In this document: piece after piece, positions 2,965-30,516 of the stretch
Layout of the letters: every line of letters begins with the position of its first letter
How positions within the stretch are numbered: position 1 is the stretch's first letter
Source of the DNA: Escherichia phage A4
Direction: 5' to 3' (one strand)
DNA: 64,000 nucleotides
Sequence record: ON286972
Notes under the pieces: generated by a model
The model's database searches: none
What the model saw: only the letters and a program-made list of their open reading frames with translations
Told to the model about the DNA's origin: nothing
Position numbers and translations under genes: made by a program

Positions 2965-3486
2965 ATGTCGAAGAAGGATGCTTCGAAAAAACATTCGGTA
3001 CACTTCAGTACTGGAAAAGATAACTGGACTACTCCAAAGGAATTCTTTGAAGATTTGGATGAAGTCTGGGGATTCACACTTGATGCAGCATGTGTTAAAG
3101 AAACTGCATTATGTGACAAGTTTTTTACACCGGAAGATGATAGTCTTTCACAGGATTGGGGAAACAATATCGTCTTTCTTAACCCACCATACAGCGACCT
3201 GAAACCTTGGCTATCTAAGGCAGTTGATGCTTATAATAATGGTGCAACAGTACTGATACTTGTTCCATCACGTACTGATACAATTGCATTTCAGGAATAT
3301 GCATCTAAGCTTTGTGACTGTATTTGTTTTATTAAAGGACGTTTAAAATTTGGCATCCCTGAAGAACCAGATAAAAAGACTGATAGTGCTCCATTCCCTA
3401 GCTGTTTAATAGTACTGGATAAGTACTTAACACCAGCTAAAATCAACTATCTTAAATCTCTCGGTCAGGTGATGAAGAATATATGA
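2965..3486 (+). CDS. Phage Dam-like DNA N6-adenine methyltransferase
   Basis: WTTP..F..LDEVWGFTLDAAC, FLNPPYS, PSRTDT and RLKF motifs typical of the phage N6A-methyltransferase family. Confidence 0.85.
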   Translation: MSKKDASKKHSVHFSTGKDNWTTPKEFFEDLDEVWGFTLDAACVKETALCDKFFTPEDDSLSQDWGNNIVFLNPPYSDLKPWLSKAVDAYNNGATVLILVPSRTDTIAFQEYASKLCDCICFIKGRLKFGIPEEPDKKTDSAPFPSCLIVLDKYLTPAKINYLKSLGQVMKNI

Positions 3487-4022
3487 AAGACACTTGTATA
3501 GTAACGTATGGACGTATAAATCCAGTGCATTTGGGACATGGGTTAATTTTTGATAAAGCCGTATCGATGAAAGAACAATACAATGCTGACTTGAAAATAT
3601 ACCTTAGTACTACACAAGATTGTATTAAGAATCCATTACCACCTGAATTGAAAATGTATTACACTGAGGGTTTCTATCCAAGAATTCAACACAACATCAG
3701 TACTGAAGATAATCTTTTTGATATTATGCAGGAATTGAATGGTAAGTACAGTGATGTTCTTTTCATATGTGGTTCAGACAGGATAGAAAACTTTCAAAAT
3801 GTACTTGACAGATACAATGGAAACTTGTATAATTTTCGTAATATAAAAGCAATCCAAGCTGGTATAGACCGAACCGTTAGCAAGTACAGTTCAACTGAAA
3901 TGCGTTCTTTTGCTAAGCGTGATGATTTTGAAAGCTTCAGTTCTTATCTACCAGGTGATGATAATGACTTGAAAATAAAACTTTTTAAAGATGTAATAAA
4001 ATACATGAGGAAAGAACCATGA
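3483..4022 (+). CDS. Nucleotidyltransferase of the NadD/NMNAT/PPAT class (possible NMN adenylyltransferase)
   Basis: N-terminal YGRINPVHLGH (HxGH motif) and C-terminal SSTEMR (ISSTxxR-like) motif. Confidence 0.55.
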   Translation: MKDTCIVTYGRINPVHLGHGLIFDKAVSMKEQYNADLKIYLSTTQDCIKNPLPPELKMYYTEGFYPRIQHNISTEDNLFDIMQELNGKYSDVLFICGSDRIENFQNVLDRYNGNLYNFRNIKAIQAGIDRTVSKYSSTEMRSFAKRDDFESFSSYLPGDDNDLKIKLFKDVIKYMRKEP

Positions 4023-4312
4023 CAGTACTCTTCAAAACTAACCCAGTACTATGGGAACAAAATGAAAGTTCAGGATATCGTAATATCCAAGTAGAATACA
4101 AAGGTAACACTATTGTATCGGTTGTTGCGAACAAAACCCTAGGTGAATGGACATGTCAAGTGGTTCCAATGGGTTATTCATATCGTCTGGATGAAGTTGA
4201 ATTTCTCGCTAATCTTTATTCACAAATGCAGTTCATTATGAACTTCCTTTGTACTGATACTGAACTTACACACGATGATGTAATCAACTTACTGGACAAT
4301 TTACATGTCTGA
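4019..4312 (+). CDS. Hypothetical protein (97 aa)
   Basis: Track ORF, ATGA start/stop overlap with upstream gene. Confidence 0.5.
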   Translation: MTVLFKTNPVLWEQNESSGYRNIQVEYKGNTIVSVVANKTLGEWTCQVVPMGYSYRLDEVEFLANLYSQMQFIMNFLCTDTELTHDDVINLLDNLHV

Positions 4313-4595
4313 AATAAATGATATCACTTCTATCATATTGGATGAGTGTATTTTAGGATCATACGAAACATTTTCAGTACTAGACGGTATAGAACTATGG
4401 CACATTAAATGCCGTGGTATCAATGGCTTCAGTACTGAATGCAAAAAACTCTTGACTTCGTACAGTACAGAAGGTAAACTGTGTACAGTGAGGTCATCAC
4501 CGAGTCTTTCATATACTGGATATATAATTTATCTTGGAAGTGATCATTTATTCTATCTCACCAAGGAGAACTATTTTGACAAATACAAACAGTAA
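4305..4595 (+). CDS. Hypothetical protein (96 aa)
   Basis: Track ORF overlapping the upstream stop. Confidence 0.5.
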   Translation: MSEINDITSIILDECILGSYETFSVLDGIELWHIKCRGINGFSTECKKLLTSYSTEGKLCTVRSSPSLSYTGYIIYLGSDHLFYLTKENYFDKYKQ

Positions 4596-5193
4596 TACTT
4601 ATTTTCGTTATCTACGCCTTGGGCTATCCCTTCGTCCAATTCGAGGTAAATGTGATTCTCTTGCTGATTTAGATTATGCATATTCCATTTATGATGATGG
4701 TGTACAGTATGTTCTGGGTGACTTCGGTGAGTTTGAAGAAACCAATGACAGTACTGGTATTATGGACGGCATTGAGAATCTAGATTGCATCGTAAACAGT
4801 TCAAGACATGATGTAATCAAAGAAATTCATAAATTTATTGAAACTAACACAGCAAAAACTACATGGTGTTTAGTAGGTACAGATCCACAAATGGCAATTG
4901 CTTTTGGTAATGAAGATGGATATGTAGCACAACTTATCATGGATTTTGCATCTAAAGAGAAATTTGAAGAATTCAAAGCAAAGATGGTTCAATCACTTCT
5001 TCAGATGGGTATCCCTGAAGATAAGATGCCAGAGATTCAAGATATTGAAGAATTTGTCTTAATTCCTTCAGATGAAAAATATGACGTATTATTCAGTACT
5101 CTGAACATTCCAGGTGTTATCGTTGAAAGCTTTGATGACGATGATGGTGAAATCTACATCGAACTGGATGATGATGACGACGACGATGAATAA
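4576..5193 (+). CDS. Acidic hypothetical protein with poly-Asp C-terminal tail
   Basis: Track ORF 4534-5193 trimmed to TTG at 4576, 6 nt after AAGGAGA; C-terminus DDDDGEIYIELDDDDDDDE. Confidence 0.45.
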   Translation: MTNTNSNTYFRYLRLGLSLRPIRGKCDSLADLDYAYSIYDDGVQYVLGDFGEFEETNDSTGIMDGIENLDCIVNSSRHDVIKEIHKFIETNTAKTTWCLVGTDPQMAIAFGNEDGYVAQLIMDFASKEKFEEFKAKMVQSLLQMGIPEDKMPEIQDIEEFVLIPSDEKYDVLFSTLNIPGVIVESFDDDDGEIYIELDDDDDDDE

Positions 5194-5198
5194 TAATT

Positions 5199-5227
5199 AT
5201 GCCCGACTTTGTTCGGGCATCTTTTTA
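5199..5227 (+). terminator. Rho-independent terminator
   Basis: Hairpin atgcccga/tcgggcat followed by CTTTTT. Confidence 0.5.
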
Positions 5228-5238
5228 AGGAAAAGTAA

Positions 5239-5511
5239 ATGGATTATCGAGTACTGAATAGAACATATAAAGCTTTATACAAAACATATATTGAAAGTAA
5301 AGTACATAATCCTATCATTTATAAAAATCCAGTTTATATTATATGGAATGAATATTTTACAATGATTCAAAATTACTTTTACGCTAACGAAATCTTTATA
5401 GATGGTGAAATGCGTAAGCTAACACGCGTTGATAGTATAGGTGGTGAAATTGTGTTATTCTATACTGATTCTATTATTGGACAACAATCTATAAATTTAG
5501 AGATATTATAA
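5239..5511 (+). CDS. Small paralog family protein (array 1, member 1)
   Basis: ~90 aa; shares N-terminal Y/F-rich helix and central hydrophobic motif with neighbours. Confidence 0.55.
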   Translation: MDYRVLNRTYKALYKTYIESKVHNPIIYKNPVYIIWNEYFTMIQNYFYANEIFIDGEMRKLTRVDSIGGEIVLFYTDSIIGQQSINLEIL

Positions 5512-5777
5512 TGAATTATAAGGATTTACATTTCACCTATAAACTAACATTTTATATGTATCGTTACGCTGATAACAACTTCATGGATAATGCATTTTAT
5601 CATCGTTTGTGGAGTGATTATATAAATTCTTTACGTGAACATTTTATAGGTACTATAATTCAATACGAAGGTAAAACAGTAAAAATATTTCAAGTTGATA
5701 GTTACAACGGGGATCTATGCTTCAAGGGTAGAGATTCTAGTGATGGATTACATGAGATTTATATCTATGAATTATAA
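5511..5777 (+). CDS. Small paralog family protein (array 1, member 2)
   Basis: MNYKDLHFTYKL... HFIGT motif; TAATG overlap with upstream gene. Confidence 0.6.
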   Translation: MNYKDLHFTYKLTFYMYRYADNNFMDNAFYHRLWSDYINSLREHFIGTIIQYEGKTVKIFQVDSYNGDLCFKGRDSSDGLHEIYIYEL

Positions 5778-6042
5778 GGATTTACAATTCACGTACAAAA
5801 TTCTTCATGAACAATATGAACGTGGTGAAGGAATATTAACTTACGATGAACGAGATTTTTTTCTTACATTGTGGTGTGAATATTTGGCAATGATTAACGA
5901 GATTTTTGTTGATAAAGAATATATGATTGACGACATGACTGTACGTATTATCAGAATTAAAAGTTATAATGGAAGTCTTGTTGGAATTTACTATAACAAT
6001 GAAAAGGCGAAAAGCGGATTTGTTGATTTGGAGTACCTATGA
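5767..6042 (+). CDS. Small paralog family protein (array 1, member 3)
   Basis: Track ORF 5695-6042 trimmed to internal ATG 5767 giving MNYKDLQFTYKIL, matching paralog N-termini. Confidence 0.55.
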   Translation: MNYKDLQFTYKILHEQYERGEGILTYDERDFFLTLWCEYLAMINEIFVDKEYMIDDMTVRIIRIKSYNGSLVGIYYNNEKAKSGFVDLEYL

Positions 6043-6302
6043 ACTATAATGATTTACAATTCACGTATCAACTTTTATATGATGATATGAATAACGAACT
6101 AGGTTTCTATTATGAAGCACATAATAAAATATGGTCAAATTATCTATCTGAGATACAACATCATTTTATAGGACTTCCAATACGTAGAAATAATAAAAAC
6201 TATCGTTGTACTGATGTAGTAAGTCATAGAGGTAGGTTGCGTTTAGAATTCTACCGCAGAGACGGGGACTTCATTGGTATAAATTTACTGGATTTTAAAT
6301 GA
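6039..6302 (+). CDS. Small paralog family protein (array 1, member 4)
   Basis: MNYNDLQFTYQLL... HFIGL motif. Confidence 0.6.
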   Translation: MNYNDLQFTYQLLYDDMNNELGFYYEAHNKIWSNYLSEIQHHFIGLPIRRNNKNYRCTDVVSHRGRLRLEFYRRDGDFIGINLLDFK

Positions 6303-6586
6303 TGAAAAACAACTTAAAGGAAATACAAGTATTTTATAGATTCTTATACTTGTCATATGTAACAGATGAGTACTATGAAAGTGTATATTATTTTTTATGG
6401 CAACATTACCGTACTATAGTAAGAGATTTATATATAGGAAAATCTATCATATCCAATGGTGAAAAATGTACCTGTACTGATGTCGTTAGTTTTAATGGTT
6501 CTTTAACACTGTGTTTCATATGCGATAATAATAGTGGGTCATTTTCATTAAACGTATATCAGTTAGAAGGAATAAATTTTGAATAA
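6299..6586 (+). CDS. Small paralog family protein (array 1, member 5)
   Basis: ...LYIGKSIISNG... motif; ATGA overlap. Confidence 0.55.
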   Translation: MMKNNLKEIQVFYRFLYLSYVTDEYYESVYYFLWQHYRTIVRDLYIGKSIISNGEKCTCTDVVSFNGSLTLCFICDNNSGSFSLNVYQLEGINFE

Positions 6587-6779
6587 GTGTCCATATTGTA
6601 ACAGTACTCAATTAGCTCGTTTCCGCTTAGATTCAGACTGGGCCACTGGTGCTGGGGATTTCTTTCCCATCAATGATGATGCGGAATACACTGAAGAACA
6701 GCACAAAGATTTTGATAAATCATGGCGACCAGACATTGAGTGCATTTATTGCCTTAATTGTGAGCGTGTACATGACTAA
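6579..6779 (+). CDS. Small zinc-ribbon protein
   Basis: CPYC ... CIYCLNC cysteine pairs; TTG start, so start uncertain. Confidence 0.4.
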   Translation: MNKCPYCNSTQLARFRLDSDWATGAGDFFPINDDAEYTEEQHKDFDKSWRPDIECIYCLNCERVHD

Positions 6780-7035
6780 AGCTGAACTAATAGTTCATAC
6801 ATATAAAATGATAGCCAGTACTGAGTTATCCTGTGGTGCAGATAATCCAGTACTGGACTATTTTATAGAATCTTTGAAAGAACATTATATTGGTAAATCA
6901 CTGATTCTTAATAATATTAATTTCACTGTAAAGGATGTAGCACCTGGAAAAAACGTACTAATAGTATGTGTTACTTCATCTGATAACCCAGTATACCCAA
7001 TAACAATAATTTTTGAGGTATTAGGTGATTTATGA
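6772..7035 (+). CDS. Small paralog family protein (array 1, member 6)
   Basis: Track ORF 6649-7035 trimmed to ATG 6772 (ATGACTAA overlap); contains HYIGKSLIL motif. Confidence 0.5.
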   Translation: MTKAELIVHTYKMIASTELSCGADNPVLDYFIESLKEHYIGKSLILNNINFTVKDVAPGKNVLIVCVTSSDNPVYPITIIFEVLGDL

Positions 7036-7322
7036 ATATCATTTTAATACAGAAAACATATGCTATATTGGTGAAAGATTATTCCATTACTTTCGATTCA
7101 CAAGAAAGTGCTCTACATAACCTATACAAAAACGTATCACAAGAATACAGAAATATGTTTTCTGACTTAGTAGTAGGAAGATATTTCAGTACTAGAAAAT
7201 ATCCAAAACTTCAAGTAGAAGATGTTTCTTTTTATTTCAATGGTCATATTACTATTCATAGTTTAGACCAAAATTCACCAACGTACTTAAACTTTTCATT
7301 CGATGAGGTAACCTTTTTATGA
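7032..7322 (+). CDS. Small paralog family protein (array 1, member 7)
   Basis: Same length class and motif spacing (LVVGRYF). Confidence 0.5.
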   Translation: MNIILIQKTYAILVKDYSITFDSQESALHNLYKNVSQEYRNMFSDLVVGRYFSTRKYPKLQVEDVSFYFNGHITIHSLDQNSPTYLNFSFDEVTFL

Positions 7323-7501
7323 GAACATTATTTTTTATCTGGAGTCTTTTTTCTCTTGCAGTACTGACAGTATGTGGGATTTGTTTCTTATCGACAATGA
7401 ATGTCTGGTACATTAATTTACTATTCCCATTCGTAGGTGTAGGTTTAGGATTTACTTTACATAGTGTATGTAAGGATTTCAATGACAAATCAAACAAATG
7501 A
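7319..7501 (+). CDS. Small membrane protein (60 aa)
   Basis: Two hydrophobic segments; ATGA overlap. Confidence 0.45.
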   Translation: MRTLFFIWSLFSLAVLTVCGICFLSTMNVWYINLLFPFVGVGLGFTLHSVCKDFNDKSNK

Positions 7502-7766
7502 AGTACTTATTGCTGAAACAATGAAGATGATTTATAGTATTACTACAGCACAGAATATGCCCTATCCCATTAAGTCTTTATTGAGGACCGTGTATCTTGT
7601 GACTGTGCAGGAATACTATAAATCCAAGCACAAAAGCATTATTAGTGTTCATCGTGATTATGAAAGGATTCGTATTTTGTACTGGAACAAGAACCGAGTA
7701 CGTTCTGAATGTGACCTTGCGGACTTCAAATTAGAGAATCTTTATTGTTATAAAGCGGGACAGTAG
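7482..7766 (+). CDS. Hypothetical protein
   Basis: Track ORF 7464-7766 trimmed to ATG 7482 (MTNQTNEV). Confidence 0.45.
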   Translation: MTNQTNEVLIAETMKMIYSITTAQNMPYPIKSLLRTVYLVTVQEYYKSKHKSIISVHRDYERIRILYWNKNRVRSECDLADFKLENLYCYKAGQ

Positions 7767-7824
7767 TATAAGTAGTGATATAATTGTTGGTATGGAATAA
7801 TAACTAACACAAGGAGCGTGTAGA

Positions 7825-8553
7825 GTGATTGACCGTATCAGATTTGCCAGCGAGTTAGCAAACCAATTAAACATTGCAAATTTCCAAATGCTAACATCCG
7901 TAATGGCAGAACATGCAACTGCATATTCAGTAAGTGGTGTCCAATGCGGACAAGAGAATTTACTAGCTGATGTATACAGTGAAGTGCAAGGTAAACAATA
8001 TTCAGTCAAAACATACAAGGATAAGTTTGTTAGTCTGTATATGAACGGCGATATTGAAGAAGAACGTAAGTTTACCGATTTTATTATTGAACGCCGTGTA
8101 TCAGGTGTGTCAAACCCGAATGCTGCAAGTGATGTAGTATTTGATGAAGTACTGAAAGATATATACGAAAATGAAGCAAAAAGTAAGAATCATTACAATG
8201 TACGTGAAACTAACACAGTGCTCTTGGGATATGATGAAGACGAATTTTTCTATTATTTCCGTATAACTGAAGTACCTTTTGATTATAAAAAACCACATAC
8301 CACATGTGCTCGTGAATTTACTGAAAAGAGTAAAAACTACAAAAAGCACGAAGGTAATCGTTGTAGCGTAAATGGTTATGATGAGAATGGTGTACACATT
8401 TATGAATGGGTGCACCCGAACTGTCAGACTTACACACGTTGCCTTAAAAAGAGATATAATTTAGAAGAACATGAGTCTTTCTACTTCAAAGTTAAGAAGC
8501 AAGATTATAACAGACCAGACGATTCTGAATTACTTGGTATGATTTACTTCTAA
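7825..8553 (+). CDS. Hypothetical protein (242 aa)
   Basis: GTG start 9 nt after AAGGAG. Confidence 0.55.
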   Translation: MIDRIRFASELANQLNIANFQMLTSVMAEHATAYSVSGVQCGQENLLADVYSEVQGKQYSVKTYKDKFVSLYMNGDIEEERKFTDFIIERRVSGVSNPNAASDVVFDEVLKDIYENEAKSKNHYNVRETNTVLLGYDEDEFFYYFRITEVPFDYKKPHTTCAREFTEKSKNYKKHEGNRCSVNGYDENGVHIYEWVHPNCQTYTRCLKKRYNLEEHESFYFKVKKQDYNRPDDSELLGMIYF

Positions 8554-8561
8554 GGTAAGTT

Positions 8562-8840
8562 ATGAATTTACAAAGAGATGTGTGGACATATGAATATCTT
8601 TTAGAACTTTATGGTGATATGTATATTAAAAATAAACCATACATAGACGATATAAGGGCTATGATAGATGATTTTTCTTCTGAGTTTATTCCACTTTATA
8701 CTAATAAAGAAGTTACACATAAATCAATGAATAAATCAGGTATCATTGATGAAATTGATTTTGATACACATGGTGTATATTTTTATATTATTTTCTCCAA
8801 TGATACTGTTGGTATATACACGTATAAAGAATTAAAATAA
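8562..8840 (+). CDS. Hypothetical protein (92 aa)
   Basis: Track ORF followed by terminator. Confidence 0.5.
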   Translation: MNLQRDVWTYEYLLELYGDMYIKNKPYIDDIRAMIDDFSSEFIPLYTNKEVTHKSMNKSGIIDEIDFDTHGVYFYIIFSNDTVGIYTYKELK

Positions 8841-8845
8841 GTACA

Positions 8846-8872
8846 GGCCAGCATGGATTGCTGGTCTTTTTT
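8846..8872 (+). terminator. Rho-independent terminator
   Basis: Hairpin ccagc-atggatt-gctgg followed by TCTTTTTT. Confidence 0.55.
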
Positions 8873-8883
8873 GTAGGTACATT

Positions 8884-9183
8884 ATGGACAAAATACAATT
8901 AGTTAGTAGTACGATAACAATGCTCGCAGATGCTGCCAGATGGAGCAGTGGTGGTTCCGTTAGTACTATGCTCAGTATACTCACGCAATACACCTATACC
9001 TGCAATGCAATGTTATATGGCAAGGAAGTTGAAATTGATGATCCCTATGGAATTCCCATATCATATGACCGAGGTGTAATAAAAAGGGTTACTATGAGAC
9101 TAACATATCATCCATATTTTGTAGTAGAACTTCCTGATGGAAAATTAAGAGAATATGTTGCTAAAAGGTTAAAACTAAAATGA
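8884..9183 (+). CDS. Hypothetical protein (99 aa)
   Basis: Track ORF. Confidence 0.5.
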   Translation: MDKIQLVSSTITMLADAARWSSGGSVSTMLSILTQYTYTCNAMLYGKEVEIDDPYGIPISYDRGVIKRVTMRLTYHPYFVVELPDGKLREYVAKRLKLK

Positions 9184-9758
9184 ATATTGTAGAATTAAGT
9201 ACTAAGCTGATTACTATGCGTAACGAGTGGTACAATTGGTATTATAACGGTACTGACATGGATTTTTCAAAATATCCATTTATGGAATCAGGATGTGATT
9301 CAAGATACCGCTGGTTGAGTAAAGATGATTCTGGTTTACATATTCGAGTTGATGATAGTGGTCAGGGAATTATAAAAGATTTACTTCAAGTTGAAGAACT
9401 CGTCCATGATGAGTGGTGTGATAATGATCCATACCTAGGAAATATAATTTATGTAACTGAAGATGATTGTATATTCGTCATTCAGCGTCATGGTGATTCT
9501 ATGTTTTATATAGCAGACAGCAGTACACCTGAAGGTGCAGCATCAGATGGTCTTATTCCTAAGATTAATATATTAGATTTTGGCTTACCTGAGCACTTCC
9601 AGATGAGTACTCTATTCGATATTCCACCGTTTGAGTTCTTTGAAGAATTTAAATTGTACTACAGTGATCTTCAGAAATTGAGTACCGAGAGTCGTATTGA
9701 AATAACTGTCAGGTACATGGACGGGGCAAAATTAACCGACACGGGGATAGAATTTTGA
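9180..9758 (+). CDS. Hypothetical protein (192 aa)
   Basis: Track ORF, ATGA overlap. Confidence 0.55.
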   Translation: MNIVELSTKLITMRNEWYNWYYNGTDMDFSKYPFMESGCDSRYRWLSKDDSGLHIRVDDSGQGIIKDLLQVEELVHDEWCDNDPYLGNIIYVTEDDCIFVIQRHGDSMFYIADSSTPEGAASDGLIPKINILDFGLPEHFQMSTLFDIPPFEFFEEFKLYYSDLQKLSTESRIEITVRYMDGAKLTDTGIEF

Positions 9759-10444
9759 TTAAAGATTTAGATAGAATTTTATATGTACTAAGGGGTGTAA
9801 TTACTTTACAACCACAGATTAACCGCATGGAGAGAGCCTTTGAATTAAAATCAAGAGAAACTCCATATTCACATATATCAAATGTAGTTGGATCATTCTG
9901 CTCTGAAGACTCTCCTTACGATATTTGTGTATGTGAAGTACAGCCCAGTAATGATCTTGGTTTTGCAATCTTCGATAAAAATCAAGTACTGGTCAGTATG
10001 TTTCAGTGTAATAATCCTTTCTGGAAAACATGCCTGTACCCTGATTGGGCTATGCTTGACCCTACGAATAGTAAGATTAAAGTATATGACTCTAAGAATG
10101 AAGAAGTTGTTATTGATTTAGATGAATCAATGACAGAGGAAGAACACTTCCAGCTTATGATGATGCGTGCAATGCCAGACTATGAAGCAATGATTAACAC
10201 CGTACAATACATTAAGGATACGATGAGATCATTGCGTACACATGAGTTTTGTCATCCAGTATCGTATGAACATTTGGATTTAGATTTCAGTACTATCAAG
10301 TTTAAAGATAGTGTTATTGAATATATCCAAGAGAACACTAAATTTGATTTTATTAGTACTATGATTAATAATCCTGATACAAATTTCAGGCATCAGTACA
10401 ATGAATCTTTGTCTGGTGGTCGAGATACCAGTTGGTGGAAATAA
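9755..10444 (+). CDS. Hypothetical protein (229 aa)
   Basis: Track ORF, overlap with upstream stop. Confidence 0.55.
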   Translation: MIKDLDRILYVLRGVITLQPQINRMERAFELKSRETPYSHISNVVGSFCSEDSPYDICVCEVQPSNDLGFAIFDKNQVLVSMFQCNNPFWKTCLYPDWAMLDPTNSKIKVYDSKNEEVVIDLDESMTEEEHFQLMMMRAMPDYEAMINTVQYIKDTMRSLRTHEFCHPVSYEHLDLDFSTIKFKDSVIEYIQENTKFDFISTMINNPDTNFRHQYNESLSGGRDTSWWK

Positions 10445-10445
10445 T

Positions 10446-10709
10446 ATGAATATCCAAGATAGATTGCAATTGTTGCACACACTTGAAGAAGCTGCTTTTG
10501 AACTTGTTAATAAAATTGCACAAGAACTCCCAAAAGGAACCAACGTTCGTGTTCGTGAAATGGATTATTTAACGGGAGAAATTGAAGAAAAAGTTCTAAC
10601 AGTGATCAAAGTAACATACTATGAATCAGAGTTATCAATTCAATGTAAGTCAGATAATGGTTACGTTTCCTACTATGGCACAGATGTAGATATAGAGGTA
10701 ATTAGATGA
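10446..10709 (+). CDS. Hypothetical protein
   Basis: Track ORF 10401-10709 trimmed to ATG 10446 just after the upstream stop. Confidence 0.45.
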   Translation: MNIQDRLQLLHTLEEAAFELVNKIAQELPKGTNVRVREMDYLTGEIEEKVLTVIKVTYYESELSIQCKSDNGYVSYYGTDVDIEVIR

Positions 10710-13857: not shown

Positions 13858-13867
13858 TTATTACAAA

Positions 13868-13894
13868 GGGATCAGTACTGATCCCTTTTCTTTT
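13868..13894 (+). terminator. Rho-independent terminator
   Basis: Perfect hairpin gggatCAGTACTGatccc followed by TTTTCTTTT. Confidence 0.6.
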
Positions 13895-13909: not shown

Positions 13910-14170
13910 ATGGATAATAGTTATGATGTACATTTCAAACAATGCCAGTTGGTTTTACACTCCCTAATGGAAGAGTTGCGAATCAAGTACATAGGCAAAA
14001 TTGCTACATGTTTATCAACTGGAAGACGTGGGCAAATTGTAGAGATTTATTATTCTCCACTTAGTGATGAAATTAAAATAAAAGCTAAAATATTCCTAAC
14101 TGGATCTAACAATTTCTTGGGTGAACATATGGTAAAAATTATCTCTGAATTATCGATAACGGATGAATAA
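13910..14170 (+). CDS. Small paralog family protein (array 2)
   Basis: KYIGKIATC motif, ~86 aa. Confidence 0.55.
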   Translation: MDNSYDVHFKQCQLVLHSLMEELRIKYIGKIATCLSTGRRGQIVEIYYSPLSDEIKIKAKIFLTGSNNFLGEHMVKIISELSITDE

Positions 14171-14172
14171 AC

Positions 14173-14439
14173 ATGAATATTAATATAGATTTCCAATTTG
14201 TTAATTCACATATTCAAGTACTGAAAAATTTAGTAAAGCAACTATCAGAAAAATATAAAGATACATATGTTAAATGTGTTTATGATACAAGTGACTGGGA
14301 ACGCATTATTAAAATTGATTCAGTATATCTTGATACTAACAATAATATAGTTGTATCTGGCGTTGATATGTATGGGCATAGATACCAATTCACAACGCGA
14401 GCAACAATAACTACAGTGGATGGATATGAATACGAATGA
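14173..14439 (+). CDS. Small paralog family protein (array 2)
   Basis: Same size class and N-terminal helix pattern. Confidence 0.5.
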   Translation: MNINIDFQFVNSHIQVLKNLVKQLSEKYKDTYVKCVYDTSDWERIIKIDSVYLDTNNNIVVSGVDMYGHRYQFTTRATITTVDGYEYE

Positions 14440-14725
14440 ATTCCAAGCATTATTGAAAACATTATATCTTCTTAAAGAAGAATCTCTTGCAATGTATAAT
14501 GAAAAACAATACAAGTTTGAAGAACAACTCATTCATTTTCATGATGAATATCTTGCCTTTTTGAATAAAAAATACTCAAATGTTCAGTGCAAATATCGAG
14601 GTAGTGATGTTATTATTACCGAAATAGAATCAAGTACTTACGGATATCCATACCTTTGTTGCAAATATATCCCAAGTGATATAACATTTCGCTCAAGAAT
14701 ATATTCGAGGTTTATTTTTTCATGA
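14420..14725 (+). CDS. Small paralog family protein (array 2)
   Basis: Track ORF, overlaps upstream stop. Confidence 0.5.
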   Translation: MDMNTNEFQALLKTLYLLKEESLAMYNEKQYKFEEQLIHFHDEYLAFLNKKYSNVQCKYRGSDVIITEIESSTYGYPYLCCKYIPSDITFRSRIYSRFIFS

Positions 14726-15003
14726 ATAATGATTCATTGAAGTTTTTTTATTATCATTATCGTATTTTACGCAGTTTATATTTTTCAGAATCCGATGAAA
14801 GATTACTAACATCATTATCAGTACTGATGGATAATTACGAGAACGAATTGTCTAAATTGGTTTTTGGTGTCAATGTTCTAGATGATACCGATTTAACATG
14901 GACAATTATTGAAGTGGCGACCTGGAATGGTAATATTTTGTACAGGTGCGAACGAGCAGGTTTTTTATGGGATGCCACATATGACGAAATTAGAATTGTA
15001 TGA
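14722..15003 (+). CDS. Small paralog family protein (array 2)
   Basis: Track ORF, ATGA overlap. Confidence 0.5.
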   Translation: MNNDSLKFFYYHYRILRSLYFSESDERLLTSLSVLMDNYENELSKLVFGVNVLDDTDLTWTIIEVATWNGNILYRCERAGFLWDATYDEIRIV

Positions 15004-15280
15004 CAGGCAAGTGAAATTGATAAGAGATACTCGTCGTTTCTTTCATACTCAATTAGTAGATCCATGTTATGATATTTCCGATTTCCTTGAAACCTATCTC
15101 CTTGATCTAACTACACCACTGCTTAAAAAATACGTAGGCACAAAAGCTATATATCTTGGAAGAGAAGTTGAAATTACCAACATATCATATTCTTATGGGG
15201 CATACATGTATACGGCAAAATCTGATAATGGACAAAGATATTATGCAATACGATCAAGAGAACTTACGATTATTGGATAG
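14981..15280 (+). CDS. Small paralog family protein (array 2)
   Basis: Track ORF 14909-15280 trimmed to ATG 14981 (MTKLELYDRQ), contains YVGTKAIYLG. Confidence 0.45.
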   Translation: MTKLELYDRQVKLIRDTRRFFHTQLVDPCYDISDFLETYLLDLTTPLLKKYVGTKAIYLGREVEITNISYSYGAYMYTAKSDNGQRYYAIRSRELTIIG

Positions 15281-15572
15281 GCATCTTGCTATTCTTATCG
15301 ACCTTGTGATGGAAAGTGATGTAAAAATTTTTGAAAGTAGATTTCTTGAGGATTATAAAACTGAATTGCAAGAACTGTACAAAGGTAAAAAAGTATTACT
15401 TAGTACTGGTGACTATGGTAAAATTGAGTACGTGTATTATGAATGGAAAAAGGTTATATATTTTATAAAAACCAAAATAAAATACCAAAATAAAACAAGA
15501 ACCTATAAAGCATATTACGATTCAAATGAGATAGAGATTATATATGACCAACACGTTAATAACAAAAAGTGA
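15243..15572 (+). CDS. Small paralog family protein (array 2)
   Basis: Track ORF 15156-15572 trimmed to ATG 15243; contains LYKGKKVLLSTGDYG. Confidence 0.45.
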   Translation: MQYDQENLRLLDRHLAILIDLVMESDVKIFESRFLEDYKTELQELYKGKKVLLSTGDYGKIEYVYYEWKKVIYFIKTKIKYQNKTRTYKAYYDSNEIEIIYDQHVNNKK

Positions 15573-15867
15573 ATTAGATTATTTGAATTATATAAACAGA
15601 TACTTTCTGATTCTATATAATATACTTCTTGAAGAACAATGCACTAAATCAAACCATCAGTTATATAACTATATTAACTGTATAATTAGTGAAATATATG
15701 AATCATTGGAAAAGAGATTTAAGTACAGAACTATTAAGTGCGAAGATGATATTGTATATATTCATGGTGTTTTTGGTACAGGATATGGAATATTCGTTGA
15801 TTATAAAATACACCCATTTGATCCGTACATAGAAAATAGTATGTACATAGAAGAGATTGAACTATGA
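15544..15867 (+). CDS. Small paralog family protein (array 2)
   Basis: Track ORF. Confidence 0.5.
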   Translation: MTNTLITKSELDYLNYINRYFLILYNILLEEQCTKSNHQLYNYINCIISEIYESLEKRFKYRTIKCEDDIVYIHGVFGTGYGIFVDYKIHPFDPYIENSMYIEEIEL

Positions 15868-16181
15868 CACAAGAAGAATATAATAAATTAATAATGTACG
15901 AGAATCATTTTAATTATTGTCTGAAATGGTTATTGTACATTGATAACGTTGAGATGGATATGTACAGAAAAGAGGTGAATAAACGTGTTAAAGATTTCTA
16001 TTACGAATTGACTGATCTTTTTTATAATAATGTAGTATATGAAGCAAATACCAGTCGTGATTATGACCTTTATATCAAGCAAATATGGGGTACTGACTAC
16101 GGTCTGATGATTGATTGCAGTACTGGTCCTAATATAGACAGACCCAGTACTACATTGTATCTGGATGAGATTTTCATATGA
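15864..16181 (+). CDS. Small paralog family protein (array 2)
   Basis: Track ORF, ATGA overlap. Confidence 0.5.
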   Translation: MTQEEYNKLIMYENHFNYCLKWLLYIDNVEMDMYRKEVNKRVKDFYYELTDLFYNNVVYEANTSRDYDLYIKQIWGTDYGLMIDCSTGPNIDRPSTTLYLDEIFI

Positions 16182-16480
16182 ATGAACTATTACTTTGTCA
16201 TAAAACATACATTATGCTATTCAGAACGTGCCATGATATGCGAATTGAAGGTATACTAGACTACCCAACTATGATGATTAACTTCAGGGTGTTAATGGAT
16301 TCATATTCACAATCTGTCATTGATGCATTTGAAGGTAGAGAAATAAAGTTCAAAAATGCCAGGACAAATAATGAGCTATGTGATACAATTAAATCAGTGG
16401 GGATTTCGGTTCCAAATGTGTACGTAATCCCATTGATGTACGGAAGAGTAGTATCCACTAACGAAATTATTAGTATATGA
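16178..16480 (+). CDS. Small paralog family protein (array 2)
   Basis: Track ORF, ATGA overlap. Confidence 0.5.
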   Translation: MNELLLCHKTYIMLFRTCHDMRIEGILDYPTMMINFRVLMDSYSQSVIDAFEGREIKFKNARTNNELCDTIKSVGISVPNVYVIPLMYGRVVSTNEIISI

Positions 16481-16776
16481 TTAAAATATTATATGAAGCA
16501 GAAGAAACATATAAACTTCTGTGGGAAACTTTTATTTTTGACAAATACTATAATAGAACTGAATGGTTAGAGGTAAGTAAAATATATCTTCAAATTTTAA
16601 ATGATTATTTTTGTCCGTTCGTTGCTGAATGTAAAAATAATCCAATTGAAGAAATTAATATAATCGAAATAGTAGATGGGTTTGGTGCGTGGTTGATATA
16701 CCAAGACAACTATCACTTTTCTAATTATATCGAAGATATCGGTAAAATAATTGTAATTAAAGGAGTCATACTATGA
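16477..16776 (+). CDS. Small paralog family protein (array 2)
   Basis: Track ORF, ATGA overlap. Confidence 0.5.
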   Translation: MIKILYEAEETYKLLWETFIFDKYYNRTEWLEVSKIYLQILNDYFCPFVAECKNNPIEEINIIEIVDGFGAWLIYQDNYHFSNYIEDIGKIIVIKGVIL

Positions 16777-17378
16777 TTTATGCACTATACGTACTATACG
16801 TACTTGGTCTGGTTATTGGTTGGTTTTTGGCAAAATCTTACAACCGTAATGCACTGGCATACACAGTATTTGGTATTATTTTTACGCCAGTACTAGAACT
16901 AGGTTTACTCATTATTATGGGTCGCCGTGACATGACACCAGTCATTGACGATAATCGTGATAAAGCAGTACATGATGTACCCGTTTTTGAAGGATATACG
17001 CCAACTTTAACAGTTGATGACGTTTACATTGATGGTGCTGAAGAAGTTAAATCAGTTCAGGAAGAAGTTGAAGAAGTTCCAGTTAAAGAAGAACCACAAC
17101 CAAAAGCACCAACAACTAAAACAAAAGCAAAAACTTCTAAGAAAACGAAAGGTCGCAAGACTAGCACTAAAAATACCAAAAAAACCAGTACAACTCGCAA
17201 AAGCACTAAAACTGATAAGGAAGCATCTTCCAGTACTGATGATGGTACAAGCACTGTTCTACTGACAGCAGCAACAACTGCCGCAATTATCAGTACTTCA
17301 TCCTATAGCGACTCATCTTCCTCTTATGATAGTGGCTCTTGTGATAGTTCAAGCTCAAGTTCAGGAAGCTGTGATTAA
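16773..17378 (+). CDS. Membrane protein with low-complexity Lys/Thr/Ser-rich C-terminal region
   Basis: Two N-terminal hydrophobic helices, then KTKAKTSKKTKGRKTSTK and SSYSDSSSSYDSGSCDSSSSSSGSCD. Confidence 0.55.
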   Translation: MIYALYVLYVLGLVIGWFLAKSYNRNALAYTVFGIIFTPVLELGLLIIMGRRDMTPVIDDNRDKAVHDVPVFEGYTPTLTVDDVYIDGAEEVKSVQEEVEEVPVKEEPQPKAPTTKTKAKTSKKTKGRKTSTKNTKKTSTTRKSTKTDKEASSSTDDGTSTVLLTAATTAAIISTSSYSDSSSSYDSGSCDSSSSSSGSCD

Positions 17379-17722
17379 TGGTTCCGTTATCATCTGAACT
17401 AAGGTACTTCGAATCTCTCCTTGATCTTCAATCAGAATTCGTTAGTGCCTTAAAAAATAAATTAATAGGCAAAAAAGTAAAATTCACTCAAGAGTATATT
17501 GACCACATCAATAAGGCTAAGGAGGATGAAGTAGATTCTGACTGGATTTATTGTGATGATGAAGCTTCTCATATCAACGAAAATACAGTTATGTTTATTA
17601 CTTTGTTGCGAGTAAAGAATTCATCAATCTATGTTGATGTGGAATATGAAAATCCAAAAAGTTCTGAATGGTACGGATTCACTTACCGTTTAGATCGTTT
17701 AGAACTAATAGAAGAGGAATAA
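17378..17722 (+). CDS. Small paralog family-like protein
   Basis: KLIGKKVKF motif. Confidence 0.5.
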   Translation: MVPLSSELRYFESLLDLQSEFVSALKNKLIGKKVKFTQEYIDHINKAKEDEVDSDWIYCDDEASHINENTVMFITLLRVKNSSIYVDVEYENPKSSEWYGFTYRLDRLELIEEE

Positions 17723-17965
17723 ATGATTTTATTTTTTGCTTTGTATGGTGTAGGAGTACTGAGTACATTTTTGAGTACTTTTCTTATCATCAATTGGGGT
17801 TCTTTTAAAGATACCCCTACCACAATGATTAATATTAGTACCTGCTCTATGTTATCAGTACTGTGGCCTGTGTCGTTGGTGTATCTTTTCATTTCAATCT
17901 GTAAAGATTTTTACGATACACTAACAAAATTCAAGAAGAAGAAACATGACAAAGACGGAAATTGA
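17723..17965 (+). CDS. Small membrane protein (80 aa)
   Basis: Two hydrophobic segments. Confidence 0.5.
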   Translation: MILFFALYGVGVLSTFLSTFLIINWGSFKDTPTTMINISTCSMLSVLWPVSLVYLFISICKDFYDTLTKFKKKKHDKDGN

Positions 17966-18200
17966 ACAGTTAAAGATGTTACAATCGTTATCTGATGATT
18001 TTGTCCAACGTGCTAAGCACAAATATATTGGTCAAGAAATTCTTCTTAAACACTCCAGAGGTTGGCAAAAAATATGCATAAGAGATATGGGAACATATCA
18101 TGGTGATGTGCGATATTACGTAGATTGCTATGTTAATGACCAAATTGCCAATACTCAAGTTGTCACCTATGATAAAATTATATGGATTAAAGAACAATGA
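17946..18200 (+). CDS. Small paralog family-like protein
   Basis: KYIGQEILL motif. Confidence 0.5.
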   Translation: MTKTEIEQLKMLQSLSDDFVQRAKHKYIGQEILLKHSRGWQKICIRDMGTYHGDVRYYVDCYVNDQIANTQVVTYDKIIWIKEQ

Positions 18201-18940
18201 AACATTTCTTAGAAGTAACAGTTCCTGATGAAAAAGATTTGTATATAGTAGGAGACATTCACGGTAATGCAAAACTATGGGAACATACCAAGAAAGAATT
18301 TGGTATTACTCCTGAAGATTATGTATTCAGTTTAGGCGATTTAATTGACAGAGGTGAGCAAAGTGCTCACCTTTTGTTTGAGTTTTTATTCGCTGAGAAT
18401 CGATATATGATCATGGGCAATCATGAATCGATGTGTATTGATTCTGCAACTCATCGTGACTGGTATCATTGCTGGACACAGAATGGGGGCGATAAGTTCC
18501 TGGAAGAAGTTGGTGTATCAGGAGTGGAATTCTTCCGTCAGTACTTGGACCAGCTACCTATGATTATCCAAATCAATCACAGAGGACTCAAGATTGGTCT
18601 TGTACATGCAGGTGTAGATCTGAAGTACAATGACTGGAATAAGTTCATTACTGGGACAAAATCAATGTCCAGTGATACAATTGAGTCATGCCTATGGGAC
18701 AGAAAGACATTTGATTTCTGTAAAGCCAACAACGTCTTTAATGCATCACGTATTACCAACGTAGATTATGTACTTAGTGGGCATACTGCCGTGTTTGATC
18801 CCCTCATTTATGGTAACCGTATCTGGATTGACAGTCAGTTTCTTACTGGTGATTTGACTATTGCTACCCCACAAGGTGGTAAGATGCGTTATTTGCGTAA
18901 AGAAAAAGACGAATATTCATTTAGTCGATTCAAAAGGTAA
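18197..18940 (+). CDS. Ser/Thr protein phosphatase (PPP family, lambda-phosphatase-like)
   Basis: GDIHGN, GDLIDRG and GNHE metallophosphatase signature motifs. Confidence 0.8.
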   Translation: MKHFLEVTVPDEKDLYIVGDIHGNAKLWEHTKKEFGITPEDYVFSLGDLIDRGEQSAHLLFEFLFAENRYMIMGNHESMCIDSATHRDWYHCWTQNGGDKFLEEVGVSGVEFFRQYLDQLPMIIQINHRGLKIGLVHAGVDLKYNDWNKFITGTKSMSSDTIESCLWDRKTFDFCKANNVFNASRITNVDYVLSGHTAVFDPLIYGNRIWIDSQFLTGDLTIATPQGGKMRYLRKEKDEYSFSRFKR

Positions 18941-18945
18941 TTATT

Positions 18946-19224
18946 ATGCATGACATGATTGATAGTGCATTAACCGAATTTAACTTTTTTAAAAAATCAC
19001 TCGATGCAATAATCAATGATACCAACCAACAAATGAAAGACCATTTAAGTGATAAATTGGTTGGTCGTTGGGTTGAGCTACCATATATAGATGGAACTAC
19101 TGTTGGTGTGATTCATAGAATTGTAACAATTCATGAAGTGAAGGTGTATGTTGAAATTCTGGTTGACAATGAAACTAACAAATGTTTTGTACAATTAAGT
19201 ACTGAAGATTTAACTTTTTTATAA
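18946..19224 (+). CDS. Small paralog family-like protein
   Basis: KLVGRWVELPYIDG motif. Confidence 0.5.
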   Translation: MHDMIDSALTEFNFFKKSLDAIINDTNQQMKDHLSDKLVGRWVELPYIDGTTVGVIHRIVTIHEVKVYVEILVDNETNKCFVQLSTEDLTFL

Positions 19225-19233
19225 GGATATAAA

Positions 19234-19461
19234 ATGAAAGTAATTTATGTTCAGGTTGAAAAATATCAAACTGAAGATGGTCGCATTTTTGATTCAGCTA
19301 AACAAGCTGAGCATCATGAACGTATTATTTCTGGTGTTCGTCGCATTTGTCCTAAATGTAACGGAACACAACAAGTTCCCGATGAAGAATTTCGTCGCTA
19401 TTATGCATGTCCAGATTGTGATGGTAAAGGATATGTAGAAAAACAAGAGGTATGGAAGTGA
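19234..19461 (+). CDS. Small zinc-ribbon protein
   Basis: CPKCNG ... CPDCDGKG cysteine pairs. Confidence 0.5.
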   Translation: MKVIYVQVEKYQTEDGRIFDSAKQAEHHERIISGVRRICPKCNGTQQVPDEEFRRYYACPDCDGKGYVEKQEVWK

Positions 19462-28187: not shown

Positions 28188-28244
28188 TATTATACTTCTC
28201 CAAGTAAAGTGCATGATAATTTTCATGCACTATATTATTAAAAA

Positions 28245-30413: not shown

Positions 30414-30449
30414 ATACTTTCCTTTATAAATTGTATTGTAGTGTTATAT

Positions 30450-30457
30450 TATTTATA
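30450..30457 (-). promoter_or_regulatory. T4-type late promoter TATAAATA
   Basis: Plus-strand TATTTATA (TATAAATA on minus) about 37 nt upstream of the minus-strand start at 30413. Confidence 0.55.
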
Positions 30458-30481
30458 TTATACCAAAAGTATTTTAGGATT

Positions 30482-30504: not shown

Positions 30505-30516
30505 TAAAATATAAAG

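What the first reader, a model, noticed from the sequence alone, without database searches (positions are those of the whole stretch)
5239..7322. Tandem array of about seven ~90 aa paralogs
Consecutive, mostly ATGA/TAATG-overlapping genes encode ~85-95 aa proteins with a shared layout: an N-terminal aromatic-rich helix (MNYKDLQFTYKL..) and a central h-Y/F-I-G-K/T-x-h motif followed by predicted beta-rich sequence. A small zinc-ribbon gene is embedded in the array. Such expansion suggests rapid diversification, as seen for host-takeover or anti-defence proteins.
Basis: seen in the sequence. Interest (0 to 1): 0.55.

Follow-up and report, generated by a model that had tools for sequence, protein, structure and literature searches.

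The report
Small-protein paralog array, jumbo coliphage
Seven back-to-back genes in a giant E. coli phage encode diverged copies of one small protein of unknown function, found only in this phage lineage; the copies are swapped, gained and lost between related phages, as is usual for phage accessory genes.

Summary
Window 5239-7322 carries seven paralogous genes (87-96 aa) and one conserved C4 zinc-ribbon gene. All overlap by 1-11 nt in one translationally coupled operon.

- **Paralogy:** g1-g5 are clear paralogs (shuffle z 7-19; BLASTP E down to 2e-12). g6 and g7 join only at profile level (E about 1e-3).
- **Source:** the window is an Asteriusvirus-like (121Q/PBECO4/RaK2-type) jumbo coliphage.
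- **Distribution:** about 15-20 sequence clusters among billions of proteins, all from this lineage. There is no Pfam, PDB or defence-library match.
- **Fold:** AlphaFold (pLDDT 90) gives a two-helix hairpin plus a small SH3-like beta-meander, with no close solved homologue.
- **Turnover:** the zinc ribbon stays 71-98% identical across relatives, while paralogs drop to 31-44%. Copy number on either side of it changes (5/2, 3/1-2, 1/5).
- **Selection:** dN/dS stays below 1.
- **Extension:** profile and structure evidence link the family to a second hypervariable array at 13.9-19.2 kb.

Function is untested. The most likely role is non-virion accessory proteins that bind host or defence factors. 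This is a new, uncharacterised member of a known kind, the plastic paralog arrays of large phages. Interest is moderate to low.

The parts
5199..5220 (+). Terminator-like GC-rich hairpin plus T-run, 18 nt upstream of g1. It marks the upstream edge of the operon.
   Evidence: 8-bp stem, 5 GC pairs, CTTTTT tail; sequence shown.
5239..5511 (+). g1, paralog 1 (90 aa). It is the only array gene with a clear Shine-Dalgarno sequence (AAGGA).
   Evidence: PHROG 32291 at E 2.5e-12.
5511..5777 (+). g2, paralog 2 (88 aa). This is the protein that was modelled.
   Evidence: AlphaFold2 pLDDT 90.3.
5767..6042 (+). g3, paralog 3 (91 aa). It starts at an ATG inside the TTG ORF 5695-6042.
   Evidence: the 91-aa product was called on public contigs.
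6039..6302 (+). g4, paralog 4 (87 aa).
   Evidence: PHROG 21004 at E 1e-12.
6299..6586 (+). g5, paralog 5 (95 aa), 96% identical to 121Q gene 426.
6579..6779 (+). Conserved C4 zinc-ribbon gene (66 aa, acidic, pI 4.5). It has a TTG start with its own AAGGA Shine-Dalgarno sequence. It is not a paralog and serves as the fixed anchor of the locus.
6772..7035 (+). g6, remote paralog (87 aa).
   Evidence: z 4.8-7.6; leave-out profile E 6e-4 to 3e-3; PHROG 33961.
7032..7322 (+). g7, remote paralog (96 aa).
   Evidence: z 5.8 against g5; leave-out profile E 1e-3 to 2e-3; PHROG 28826.
7319..7501 (+). Gene for a 60-aa protein with two hydrophobic segments, overlapping g7 by ATGA. It has a paralog at 17723-17965 inside the second array.
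   Evidence: z 7.1 between the two.
7482..7766 (+). Last gene of the overlapping run (94 aa, basic). Possibly a very remote family member.
   Evidence: hhalign probability 68% over 83 columns; 20-nt overlap with the previous gene.
8562..8840 (+). 92-aa gene, possibly a remote member.
   Evidence: hhalign probability 56%; extended profile E 6e-3 on the identical contig, and family hits at the corresponding positions in L018.
5506..6082 (+). Three copies of a 49-nt direct repeat at the 5' ends of g2, g3 and g4 (5506-5554, 5762-5810, 6034-6082; 69-82% identity). It encodes the conserved MNYxDLxFTY helix start. The copies differ at synonymous sites.
13910..19224 (+). Second hypervariable array of 84-125-aa genes, interrupted by membrane-protein and phosphatase genes. 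Members 14420-14725 and 14722-15003 join the family profile. Member 17946-18200 shares the helix, 'KYIG' junction and SH3-like beta-meander architecture.

Best explanation
The locus is a lineage-specific multigene family of an Asteriusvirus-type jumbo coliphage.

Shown:
- An ancestral gene of about 90 aa was duplicated repeatedly in tandem on both sides of a conserved zinc-ribbon gene.
- All copies are kept as intact, overlapping, translationally coupled cistrons of one plus-strand operon, behind a terminator-like hairpin.
- All copies keep one scaffold: a two-helix hairpin packed on a four-stranded SH3-like beta-meander. The hydrophobic core and an N-terminal MNxxxIQxTYKxL motif are conserved, and nearly everything else varies.
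- Copies are gained, lost and replaced by diverged alleles between related phages, while staying under (relaxed) purifying selection.
- The proteins are acidic to neutral.

Inferred mechanism:
- They are soluble, non-virion accessory proteins, made together in the non-structural (probably early or middle) programme.
- Each acts by protein-protein binding, with the constant scaffold displaying variable surfaces that engage different host or host-defence factors.
- The repertoire is therefore reshuffled as hosts change. The conserved N-terminal helix and the co-encoded zinc-ribbon protein may provide a shared partner or activity.
For: Paralogy.

Operon anatomy (overlaps, a single Shine-Dalgarno sequence at g1, an upstream hairpin).

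Fold: AlphaFold2 pLDDT 90.3, pTM 0.75, H3-18, H24-45 and four strands. Conserved positions fall on a hydrophobic i/i+3/i+4 pattern in the helices and at G47, V62, G67, L69, L71 and V83.

Lineage restriction: 22 clusters among 5.8e9. There were 18 representatives among 1.84e9, of which 3 are spurious repeat proteins. All named sources are Asteriusvirus phages or E. coli assemblies with contigs of about 350 kb.

Turnover: identity table; g1, g2 and g3 are all closest to slot 1 (gene 422) of 121Q; copies before/after the zinc ribbon are 5/2 (window, 121Q, SP27), 3/1-2 (JNE01), at least 1/1 (RaK2) and 1/5 plus 2 (metagenome L018).

Selection: dN/dS is 0.27-0.62 for g6 and g7, against 0-0.22 for neighbours and 0 for the zinc ribbon.

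Protein-level constraint: synonymous differences inside the conserved 5' motif argue for constraint on the protein rather than recent gene conversion.

Not typical nucleic-acid binders: pI 4.6-6.9.

Not virion proteins: the phAPEC6 orthologues gp384-389 do not appear anywhere in the text or tables of the paper reporting 62 MS-detected virion proteins (PMC7247149).

Context: the array lies among short ORFs of unknown function next to Dam, a cytidylyltransferase, RnlA, PseT and a Ser/Thr phosphatase. In the related phage CBB a region of mostly short hypothetical ORFs with RpoD-like promoters is suspected to hold the early host-takeover genes; I did not establish that it is syntenic with this locus (PMC5259590).

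General precedent: paralogues make up about 10% of RaK2 gene products (PMC3622015). Variable ORFans of T4-type hyperplastic regions include proven host-protein inhibitors such as 55.2 (PMC4396842).
Against: There is no functional evidence at all. No expression data exist for this locus and no target is known. There is no similarity to any characterised anti-defence or takeover protein.

dN/dS below 1, with dS elevated in parallel, gives no signature of an arms race.

Tight translational coupling and a near-constant count of seven in several Asteriusviruses would also fit subunits of one complex.

No convincing sigma-70 promoter lies directly upstream of g1, so timing is inferred only.

SH3-like, KOW and Tudor folds often bind nucleic acids.
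Confidence: 0.4

Rival explanations
1. The paralogs are subunits of one hetero-oligomeric phage complex, for example a ring of SH3/Sm-like protomers. They would be made in fixed stoichiometry by translational coupling, possibly together with the zinc-ribbon and membrane proteins.
For: All cistrons overlap, and only g1 and the zinc ribbon have a Shine-Dalgarno sequence. Seven members occur in the window, 121Q and SP27; TH47 and ph0011 have six profile hits plus a g6-like gene (31-32% identical) in the seventh slot. The fold is an N-terminal helix plus a small beta-barrel-like domain. Members are under purifying selection.
Confidence: 0.15
2. They are nucleic-acid-binding regulators (KOW/Tudor/Sm-like small barrels) that modulate transcription, translation or RNA stability during infection.
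Against: pI is 4.6-6.9 with net charge 0 to -6. No conserved basic patch is visible in the alignment. The matches cover only 40-50 residues and are generic for the fold.
Confidence: 0.12
3. They are packaged internal proteins in the manner of the T4 IP loci. A conserved N-terminal helix would act as a capsid-targeting signal on polymorphic cargo injected to counter host restriction.
For: The N-terminal 13 residues are the most conserved segment and the rest is polymorphic. phAPEC6 has a capsid inner body (PMC7247149 abstract).
Against: The N-terminal helix is predicted with high confidence as an integral half of the helical hairpin. The orthologues gp384-389 do not appear in the phAPEC6 virion MS paper. 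The genes lie in a non-structural operon far from head genes. I saw no conserved L/I-x-E-type processing site after the motif; this rests on inspecting the alignment and my own knowledge of the T4 signal.
Confidence: 0.06
4. They are functionally dispensable, slowly decaying duplicates with no specific role.
For: Extreme divergence (16-32% identity to g2 in the seven-sequence alignment); relaxed dN/dS relative to neighbours; variable copy number.
Against: Every copy in every genome examined is an intact ORF with preserved overlap architecture. dN/dS is clearly below 1. The core and N-terminal motif are conserved at protein level despite synonymous change. The AlphaFold model is confident.
Confidence: 0.08

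Closest known systems
PHROG families 32291, 21004 (g1-g5), 33961 (g6), 28826 (g7) and 22354 (zinc ribbon)
   Same: Direct sequence membership, with E from 1e-12 to 1e-56. These are the same hypothetical proteins of 121Q, PBECO4 and slurp01.
   Different: All are annotated 'unknown function'. PHROGs splits what is shown here to be one family into four groups and does not link them to the second array.
Hyperplastic (plastic) regions of T4-type phages and their ORFan genes, e.g. T4 55.2 (PMC4122927, PMC2839356, PMC4396842)
   Same: Clusters of short, phylogenetically variable, non-structural genes lie between conserved core genes and are shuffled between close relatives. At least some of them encode inhibitors of host proteins.
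   Different: Those regions are mostly collections of unrelated ORFans flanked by promoter/stem-loop cassettes. Here the genes are paralogs of one another, overlap without intergenic cassettes, and surround a conserved anchor gene. No homology.
Paralogue families of RaK2-like and other jumbo phages (PMC3622015; PMC5259590)
   Same: Same phage group. The literature already notes that about 10% of RaK2 products, and 22 CBB ORFs, are paralogues.
   Different: As far as I could find, this particular family, its fold, its zinc-ribbon anchor and its link to a second array have not been described.
Small SH3-like / KOW / Tudor beta-barrel domains (e.g. DUF1653, YajC C-terminal domain, KOW-like domain of T4 MotB)
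   Same: The C-terminal 40-45 residues form a small antiparallel meander that superposes on such domains.
Anti-CRISPR (acr-aca) loci (comparison from my own knowledge, not tested)
   Same: The architecture is similar: a variable set of small genes sits next to one conserved small anchor gene in a single operon.
   Different: The anchor here is an acidic zinc ribbon, not an HTH repressor. The variable genes are paralogs rather than unrelated. No homology and no functional evidence.
T4 internal-protein (IP) loci (comparison from my own knowledge)
   Same: Polymorphic small proteins share a conserved N-terminal segment.
   Different: The N-terminus is predicted to be structural, the proteins are not reported in virions, and the genomic context differs.

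Membership tests
Any Pfam-A family | Score above the family's gathering threshold | tested here: not met
   g1-g4 and g6 have no hit at E up to 1. g5, g7 and the zinc ribbon have only sub-threshold noise (E 0.09 or worse). Second-array members are likewise negative.
PHROGs 32291/21004/33961/28826 (unknown function) | Significant HMM match over most of the protein | tested here: met
   E 1e-12 to 8e-56 with near full-length coverage. g5 is the exception, with only weak matches (E 4e-5 and 9e-5).
One paralogous family (g1-g7) | Pairwise or profile similarity significantly above shuffled or decoy controls | tested here: met
   z 7-19 for g1-g5. g6 and g7 score E 6e-4 to 3e-3 against a profile that excludes them. 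No minus-strand decoy was recruited among 991 ORFs.
One paralogous family (g1-g7) | Shared predicted fold | tested here: inconclusive
   Only g2 was modelled. Foldseek recovers the slurp01 96-aa and 121Q 78-aa members at TM 0.65-0.88. g6 was not modelled.
Superfamily including the second array (13.9-19.2 kb) | Profile-level sequence link | tested here: met
   14420-14725 scores E 4e-5 with the g1-g5 profile. 14420-14725, 14722-15003, the JNE01 orthologue of 17946-18200 and a RaK2 member are recruited iteratively. Most other second-array genes reach hhalign probabilities of only 2-60%.
Superfamily including the second array (13.9-19.2 kb) | Shared architecture (N-terminal helix, aromatic-I-G junction, SH3-like meander) | tested here: met
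   The model of 17946-18200 has pLDDT 85. Its second-best BFVD hit is the 78-aa 121Q protein A0A097EY12, which I take to be the g5 orthologue (gene 426, 78 aa as annotated): E 3e-3, TM 0.59/0.63. This member has one long helix instead of a hairpin.
SH3-like / KOW / Tudor small barrels | Strong structural superposition of the beta-domain | tested here: inconclusive
T4-type internal proteins | Presence in the virion | tested here: not met
   The phAPEC6 orthologues gp384-389 have no occurrence in the paper reporting 62 MS-detected virion proteins. Small proteins can be missed by MS.
T4-type internal proteins | Cleavable N-terminal capsid-targeting sequence | not testable with these tools
   The N-terminus is predicted as an integral helix. 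Processing needs proteomics.
Lar restriction-alleviation protein (for the zinc ribbon) | Pfam PF14354 match above threshold | tested here: not met
   E 0.19, 12.4 bits against a cut-off of 28.6.
Known defence-system proteins (PADLOC) | HMM match | tested here: not met
   No meaningful hit for any gene from 5239 to 7766.
Known anti-defence proteins | Homology to a characterised inhibitor | not tested

The most novel reading that the evidence does not exclude
The two arrays together form a large, phage-lineage-specific superfamily of perhaps 20 or more genes in this window, built on a previously undescribed helix-plus-SH3-like scaffold. The superfamily would work as a modular, recombining repertoire of inhibitors: the conserved N-terminal helix (and possibly the zinc-ribbon protein) supplies a common function, and the variable barrel surface gives target specificity against different host defence or housekeeping proteins. 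This would be a phage counterpart of the multigene host-range families of large eukaryotic DNA viruses.
Probability: 0.2. Interest if true: 0.6.

Novelty: new member of a known kind. Interest (0 to 1): 0.35.

Why it matters
Jumbo phages devote much of their genome to short ORFs of unknown function, and paralog families are repeatedly noted but almost never dissected. This locus offers a compact, well-delimited test case:

- one confidently predicted scaffold;
- a conserved zinc-ribbon anchor;
- natural variation in copy number and alleles among otherwise near-identical coliphages that grow on E. coli K-12 and O157.

If the paralogs prove to be target-specific inhibitors, they would add a new protein scaffold to the anti-host toolkit. 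They would also explain part of the 'dark matter' of RaK2-like phages. If they prove to be one complex, or dispensable, the locus is ordinary genome plasticity.

Tried and rejected
1. Chance similarity: rejected by shuffle z-scores, BLASTP E-values and leave-out profiles.
2. Zinc ribbon or flanking ORFs 4019-4312, 4305-4595 and 8884-9183 as members: no support (z 3.1 or less; hhalign probability 1% or less).
3. Known domains: Pfam, PADLOC and a PDB sequence-profile search were all negative.
5. Wider distribution: an exhaustive profile search of 1.84e9 representatives found only lineage members. Three long proteins (P0026, P0029, P0031) were inspected and are repeat-driven artefacts.
6. Within-window iteration alone did not expand the family. 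Adding ORFs from ten related loci did.
7. Positive selection: Nei-Gojobori dN/dS was below 1 in every comparable pair. For g1-g4 no orthologue close enough exists in the data.
8. Recent gene conversion as the cause of the conserved 5' ends: unlikely, because the copies differ at synonymous sites.
9. A promoter/stem-loop cassette of the T4 kind directly upstream of g1: only the hairpin is present, with no room for a promoter before the start codon.
10. Literature: no transcriptome or functional study of this locus was found.
11. A single-sequence homologue search for the second-array gene 17946-18200 returned almost nothing because of the word index. An alignment query gave just enough sequences for modelling.
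Full report
**What the window is.** The region has about 33% G+C and almost all genes lie on the plus strand. Megablast and blastn against 50,697 phage records place it among Asteriusvirus jumbo coliphages (121Q, PBECO4, SP27, phAPEC6), with Klebsiella phage RaK2 as a more distant relative. No record is close: the best hits are about 80-82% identical over 74-80% of window 3400-9400. Only window 6273-7322 (g5 to g7) has a megablast match, at about 95%. Window 5239-6272 (g1 to g4) has none. An identical array occurs on metagenome and Logan contigs.

**Check of the observation.**
- Eight genes lie at 5239-7322: seven of 87-96 aa and one of 66 aa.
- Two of them (g3, g6) start at an internal ATG of a longer TTG/GTG ORF. 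Public gene calls on the identical contig give the same product lengths.
- Successive genes overlap by 1, 11, 4, 4, 8, 8 and 4 nt. The run continues by ATGA into a 60-aa hydrophobic protein and then, with a 20-nt overlap, into a 94-aa gene ending at 7766.
- Only g1 (AAGGA) and the zinc-ribbon gene (AAGGA before a TTG start) have clear Shine-Dalgarno sequences.
- A terminator-like hairpin (5199-5220) sits 18 nt upstream of g1.

**Paralogy is statistically solid for g1-g5.** Smith-Waterman z is 7.0-18.9 against 300 shuffles for all ten pairs, and BLASTP E ranges from 4e-3 down to 2e-12. g6 and g7 are remote. Their z is 4.8-7.6 and 3.2-5.8 to some members only. A profile built without them still ranks them at E 6e-4 to 3e-3 among 565 six-frame ORFs of the window. 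The zinc-ribbon protein is unrelated to the paralogs (z 3.1 or less).

- The N-terminal MNYxDLQFTYK helix is the best-conserved segment. Y10 is invariant in the 25-sequence alignment and present in 91% of 35 members.
- The aromatic-I-G-K junction is only moderately conserved. The G is present in 54% of members and is absent from g1 and g3.

**Fold.** AlphaFold2 on g2, with a 25-sequence alignment, gives pLDDT 90.3 and pTM 0.75. It predicts helices 3-18 and 24-45 (a hairpin), followed by strands 49-52, 55-65, 68-74 and 80-84.
- Conserved positions are mostly hydrophobic core positions of the two helices, plus G47, V62, G67, L69, L71 and V83.
- Polar N2, Q7 and T9 are also conserved.
- Foldseek against BFVD returns only family members with high TM, then generic partial SH3-like matches of 40-50 residues.
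- Profile searches of Pfam, PDB sequences and PADLOC are negative. PHROGs places the genes in four families of unknown function.
- The proteins are acidic to neutral, with pI 4.6-6.9.

**Distribution.**
- A profile search of 5.8e9 clustered proteins found 22 clusters.
- An exhaustive HMMER scan of 1.84e9 representatives found 18. Three of those are long repeat proteins whose scores are summed noise.
- All informative sources are Asteriusvirus genomes, E. coli assemblies carrying contigs of about 350 kb, or metagenome contigs with the same synteny.

**Evolution of the locus.**
- tblastn against six relatives shows a strongly mosaic pattern. The zinc ribbon is 98, 98, 94, 97, 85 and 71% identical in 121Q, SP27, TH47, ph0011, JNE01 and RaK2.
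- g1-g4 reach only 31-44% to anything. g5-g7 are 92-96% identical to 121Q and SP27 (g5 also 95% to TH47). g6 and g7 fall to 31-57% against TH47 and ph0011, and g5 to 58% against ph0011.
- g1, g2 and g3 are all most similar to the slot-1 gene (422) of 121Q, whereas 121Q slots 2 and 3 hold other subfamilies. Duplications and replacements are therefore lineage-specific.
- Family members before/after the zinc ribbon number 5/2 in the window, 121Q and SP27, 3/1-2 in JNE01, at least 1/1 in RaK2, and 1/5 (plus two further downstream) in the metagenomic relative L018.
- Between 121Q, slurp01 and JP4, which are nearly identical elsewhere in the locus, g6 and g7 are divergence hot spots: dS is 0.09-0.49 and dN 0.04-0.15, against dN of about 0 in g5, the zinc ribbon, the membrane protein and the 242-aa gene.
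- dN/dS is 0.3-0.6. Window against 121Q gives 0.27 and 0.34 for g6 and g7, and 0 for the zinc ribbon (10 synonymous, 0 non-synonymous).
- This is allele exchange with relaxed purifying selection, not demonstrable positive selection.
- A 49-nt direct repeat marks the 5' ends of g2, g3 and g4 (69-82% identity). Its synonymous differences point to constraint on the protein motif.

**Beyond the coordinates.** A second run of 84-125-aa genes lies at 13910-19224, behind another terminator-like hairpin (13865-13888). It carries the same 'KYIGK / LIGKKV' junction motif. Most of its members have no recognisable orthologue (BLASTP E below 1e-8) in 121Q, ph0011, JNE01 or RaK2, so it is even more variable.
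- The g1-g5 profile hits 14420-14725 at E 4e-5.
- An iterative profile over 991 six-frame ORFs of the window and ten related loci converges on 43 members with no minus-strand decoy. These include 14420-14725, 14722-15003, the JNE01 orthologue of 17946-18200 and a RaK2 second-array gene.
- hhalign probabilities for other groups are only 56-83% at best.
- AlphaFold2 of 17946-18200 (pLDDT 85) gives one long helix, the KYIG junction and a five-strand meander.
- Its second-best hit in BFVD is the 78-aa 121Q protein that corresponds to g5 (TM 0.59/0.63). Many other small RaK2 and PBECO4 proteins follow.
- The two arrays therefore belong to one loose superfamily. How many of the roughly 20 small genes are true members remains open.
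- Each array also contains a paralogous gene for a small protein with two hydrophobic segments (7319-7501 and 17723-17965, z 7.1).

**Interpretation.**
- Shown: a lineage-restricted multigene family on a confident helix-hairpin plus SH3-like scaffold; one translationally coupled operon; a conserved zinc-ribbon anchor; rapid birth, death and allele exchange; purifying selection; acidic charge.
- From the literature: the phAPEC6 orthologues (gp384-389) do not appear in the paper reporting 62 MS-detected virion proteins (PMC7247149). About 10% of RaK2 products are paralogues (PMC3622015). In the related phage CBB a region of mostly short hypothetical ORFs is suspected to hold the early host-takeover genes, though I did not establish that it is syntenic with this locus (PMC5259590). 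Variable genes of T4-type phages cluster in hyperplastic regions, and at least one such ORFan inhibits a host enzyme (PMC4122927, PMC4396842).
- Inferred: the paralogs are soluble, non-virion accessory proteins that act by protein-protein binding, with variable surfaces aimed at different host or defence factors. I put this at about 0.4.
- Rivals: subunits of a single complex (0.15), nucleic-acid-binding regulators (0.12), dispensable decaying duplicates (0.08) and T4-IP-like packaged proteins (0.06). The remainder is 'something else'.

**Novelty and verdict.** Its evolutionary reading is supported with qualification, and its functional reading is untested. The general phenomenon is known. This particular family, its predicted fold, the zinc-ribbon anchor and the link between the two arrays appear undescribed. 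I file it as a new member of a known kind, of moderate to low interest (0.35). It could rise to about 0.6 if the binder-repertoire model were shown experimentally.

Noticed in passing
window 13910-19224: A second, even more variable tandem array of 84-125-aa genes. Most members have no orthologue at BLASTP E below 1e-8 in 121Q, ph0011, JNE01 or RaK2. It shares the helix, 'KYIGK' junction and beta-domain layout, and is linked to the first array by profile and structure.
   Followed up: partly
window 7319-7501 and 17723-17965: Two paralogous small proteins (60 and 80 aa, z 7.1), each with two hydrophobic segments and a shared C-terminal 'S[VI]CKDF' motif. One sits in each array. No PHROG or Pfam match was found.
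   Followed up: partly
window 6579-6779: The zinc-ribbon gene uses a conserved TTG start with its own Shine-Dalgarno sequence in PBECO4-type phages and ATG in JNE01, RaK2 and L017. The fifth cysteine (C55) is not conserved, so the zinc site is C4, C7, C58 and C61. It has a weak sub-threshold resemblance to Lar (E 0.19). One gene in the syntenic K64-1 stretch is annotated 'transcription factor IIS-like'; I did not check whether that gene is the zinc-ribbon homologue.
   Followed up: partly
window 5199-5220, 8845-8867, 13865-13888: Three terminator-like hairpins on the plus strand lie just before g1, before gene 8884 and before the second array. They seem to partition the region into transcription units. 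No strong sigma-70-like promoter follows them.
   Followed up: no
window 10706-11851 and 12925-13857: RnlA-type RNA ligase and PseT polynucleotide kinase/phosphatase lie between the two arrays. This is the T4 tRNA-repair pair that counters the PrrC anticodon nuclease. A Ser/Thr phosphatase (18197-18940), a DnaJ-like zinc-finger protein (19234-19461) and a DNA ligase (21077-22495) follow.
   Followed up: no
window 4534-5193: The protein just upstream of the array ends in an extremely acidic tail (DDDDGEIYIELDDDDDDDE). It belongs to PHROG 15575, of unknown function.
   Followed up: no
window 16773-17378: A 201-aa protein with N-terminal hydrophobic segments and a long Ser/Thr/Lys-rich low-complexity tail is embedded in the second array.
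   Followed up: no
window 3483-10709 compared with 121Q (L001): Synonymous divergence between the window and 121Q varies more than 20-fold from gene to gene (dS 0.08 to 2.1). This indicates fine-scale mosaic recombination across the whole region, not only in the arrays.
   Followed up: partly
window 28000-32000: G+C rises to 39%, and GC and AT skew drop towards zero or reverse, unlike the rest of the window. This suggests a block of minus-strand genes or foreign DNA. No tRNA genes were found anywhere in the window.
   Followed up: no
L004 (phage ph0011) 5954-7438: ph0011 carries an extra 1.5-kb gene inserted between the homologues of window genes 7482-7766 and 7825-8553. The gene is absent from the window and from 121Q.
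   Followed up: no
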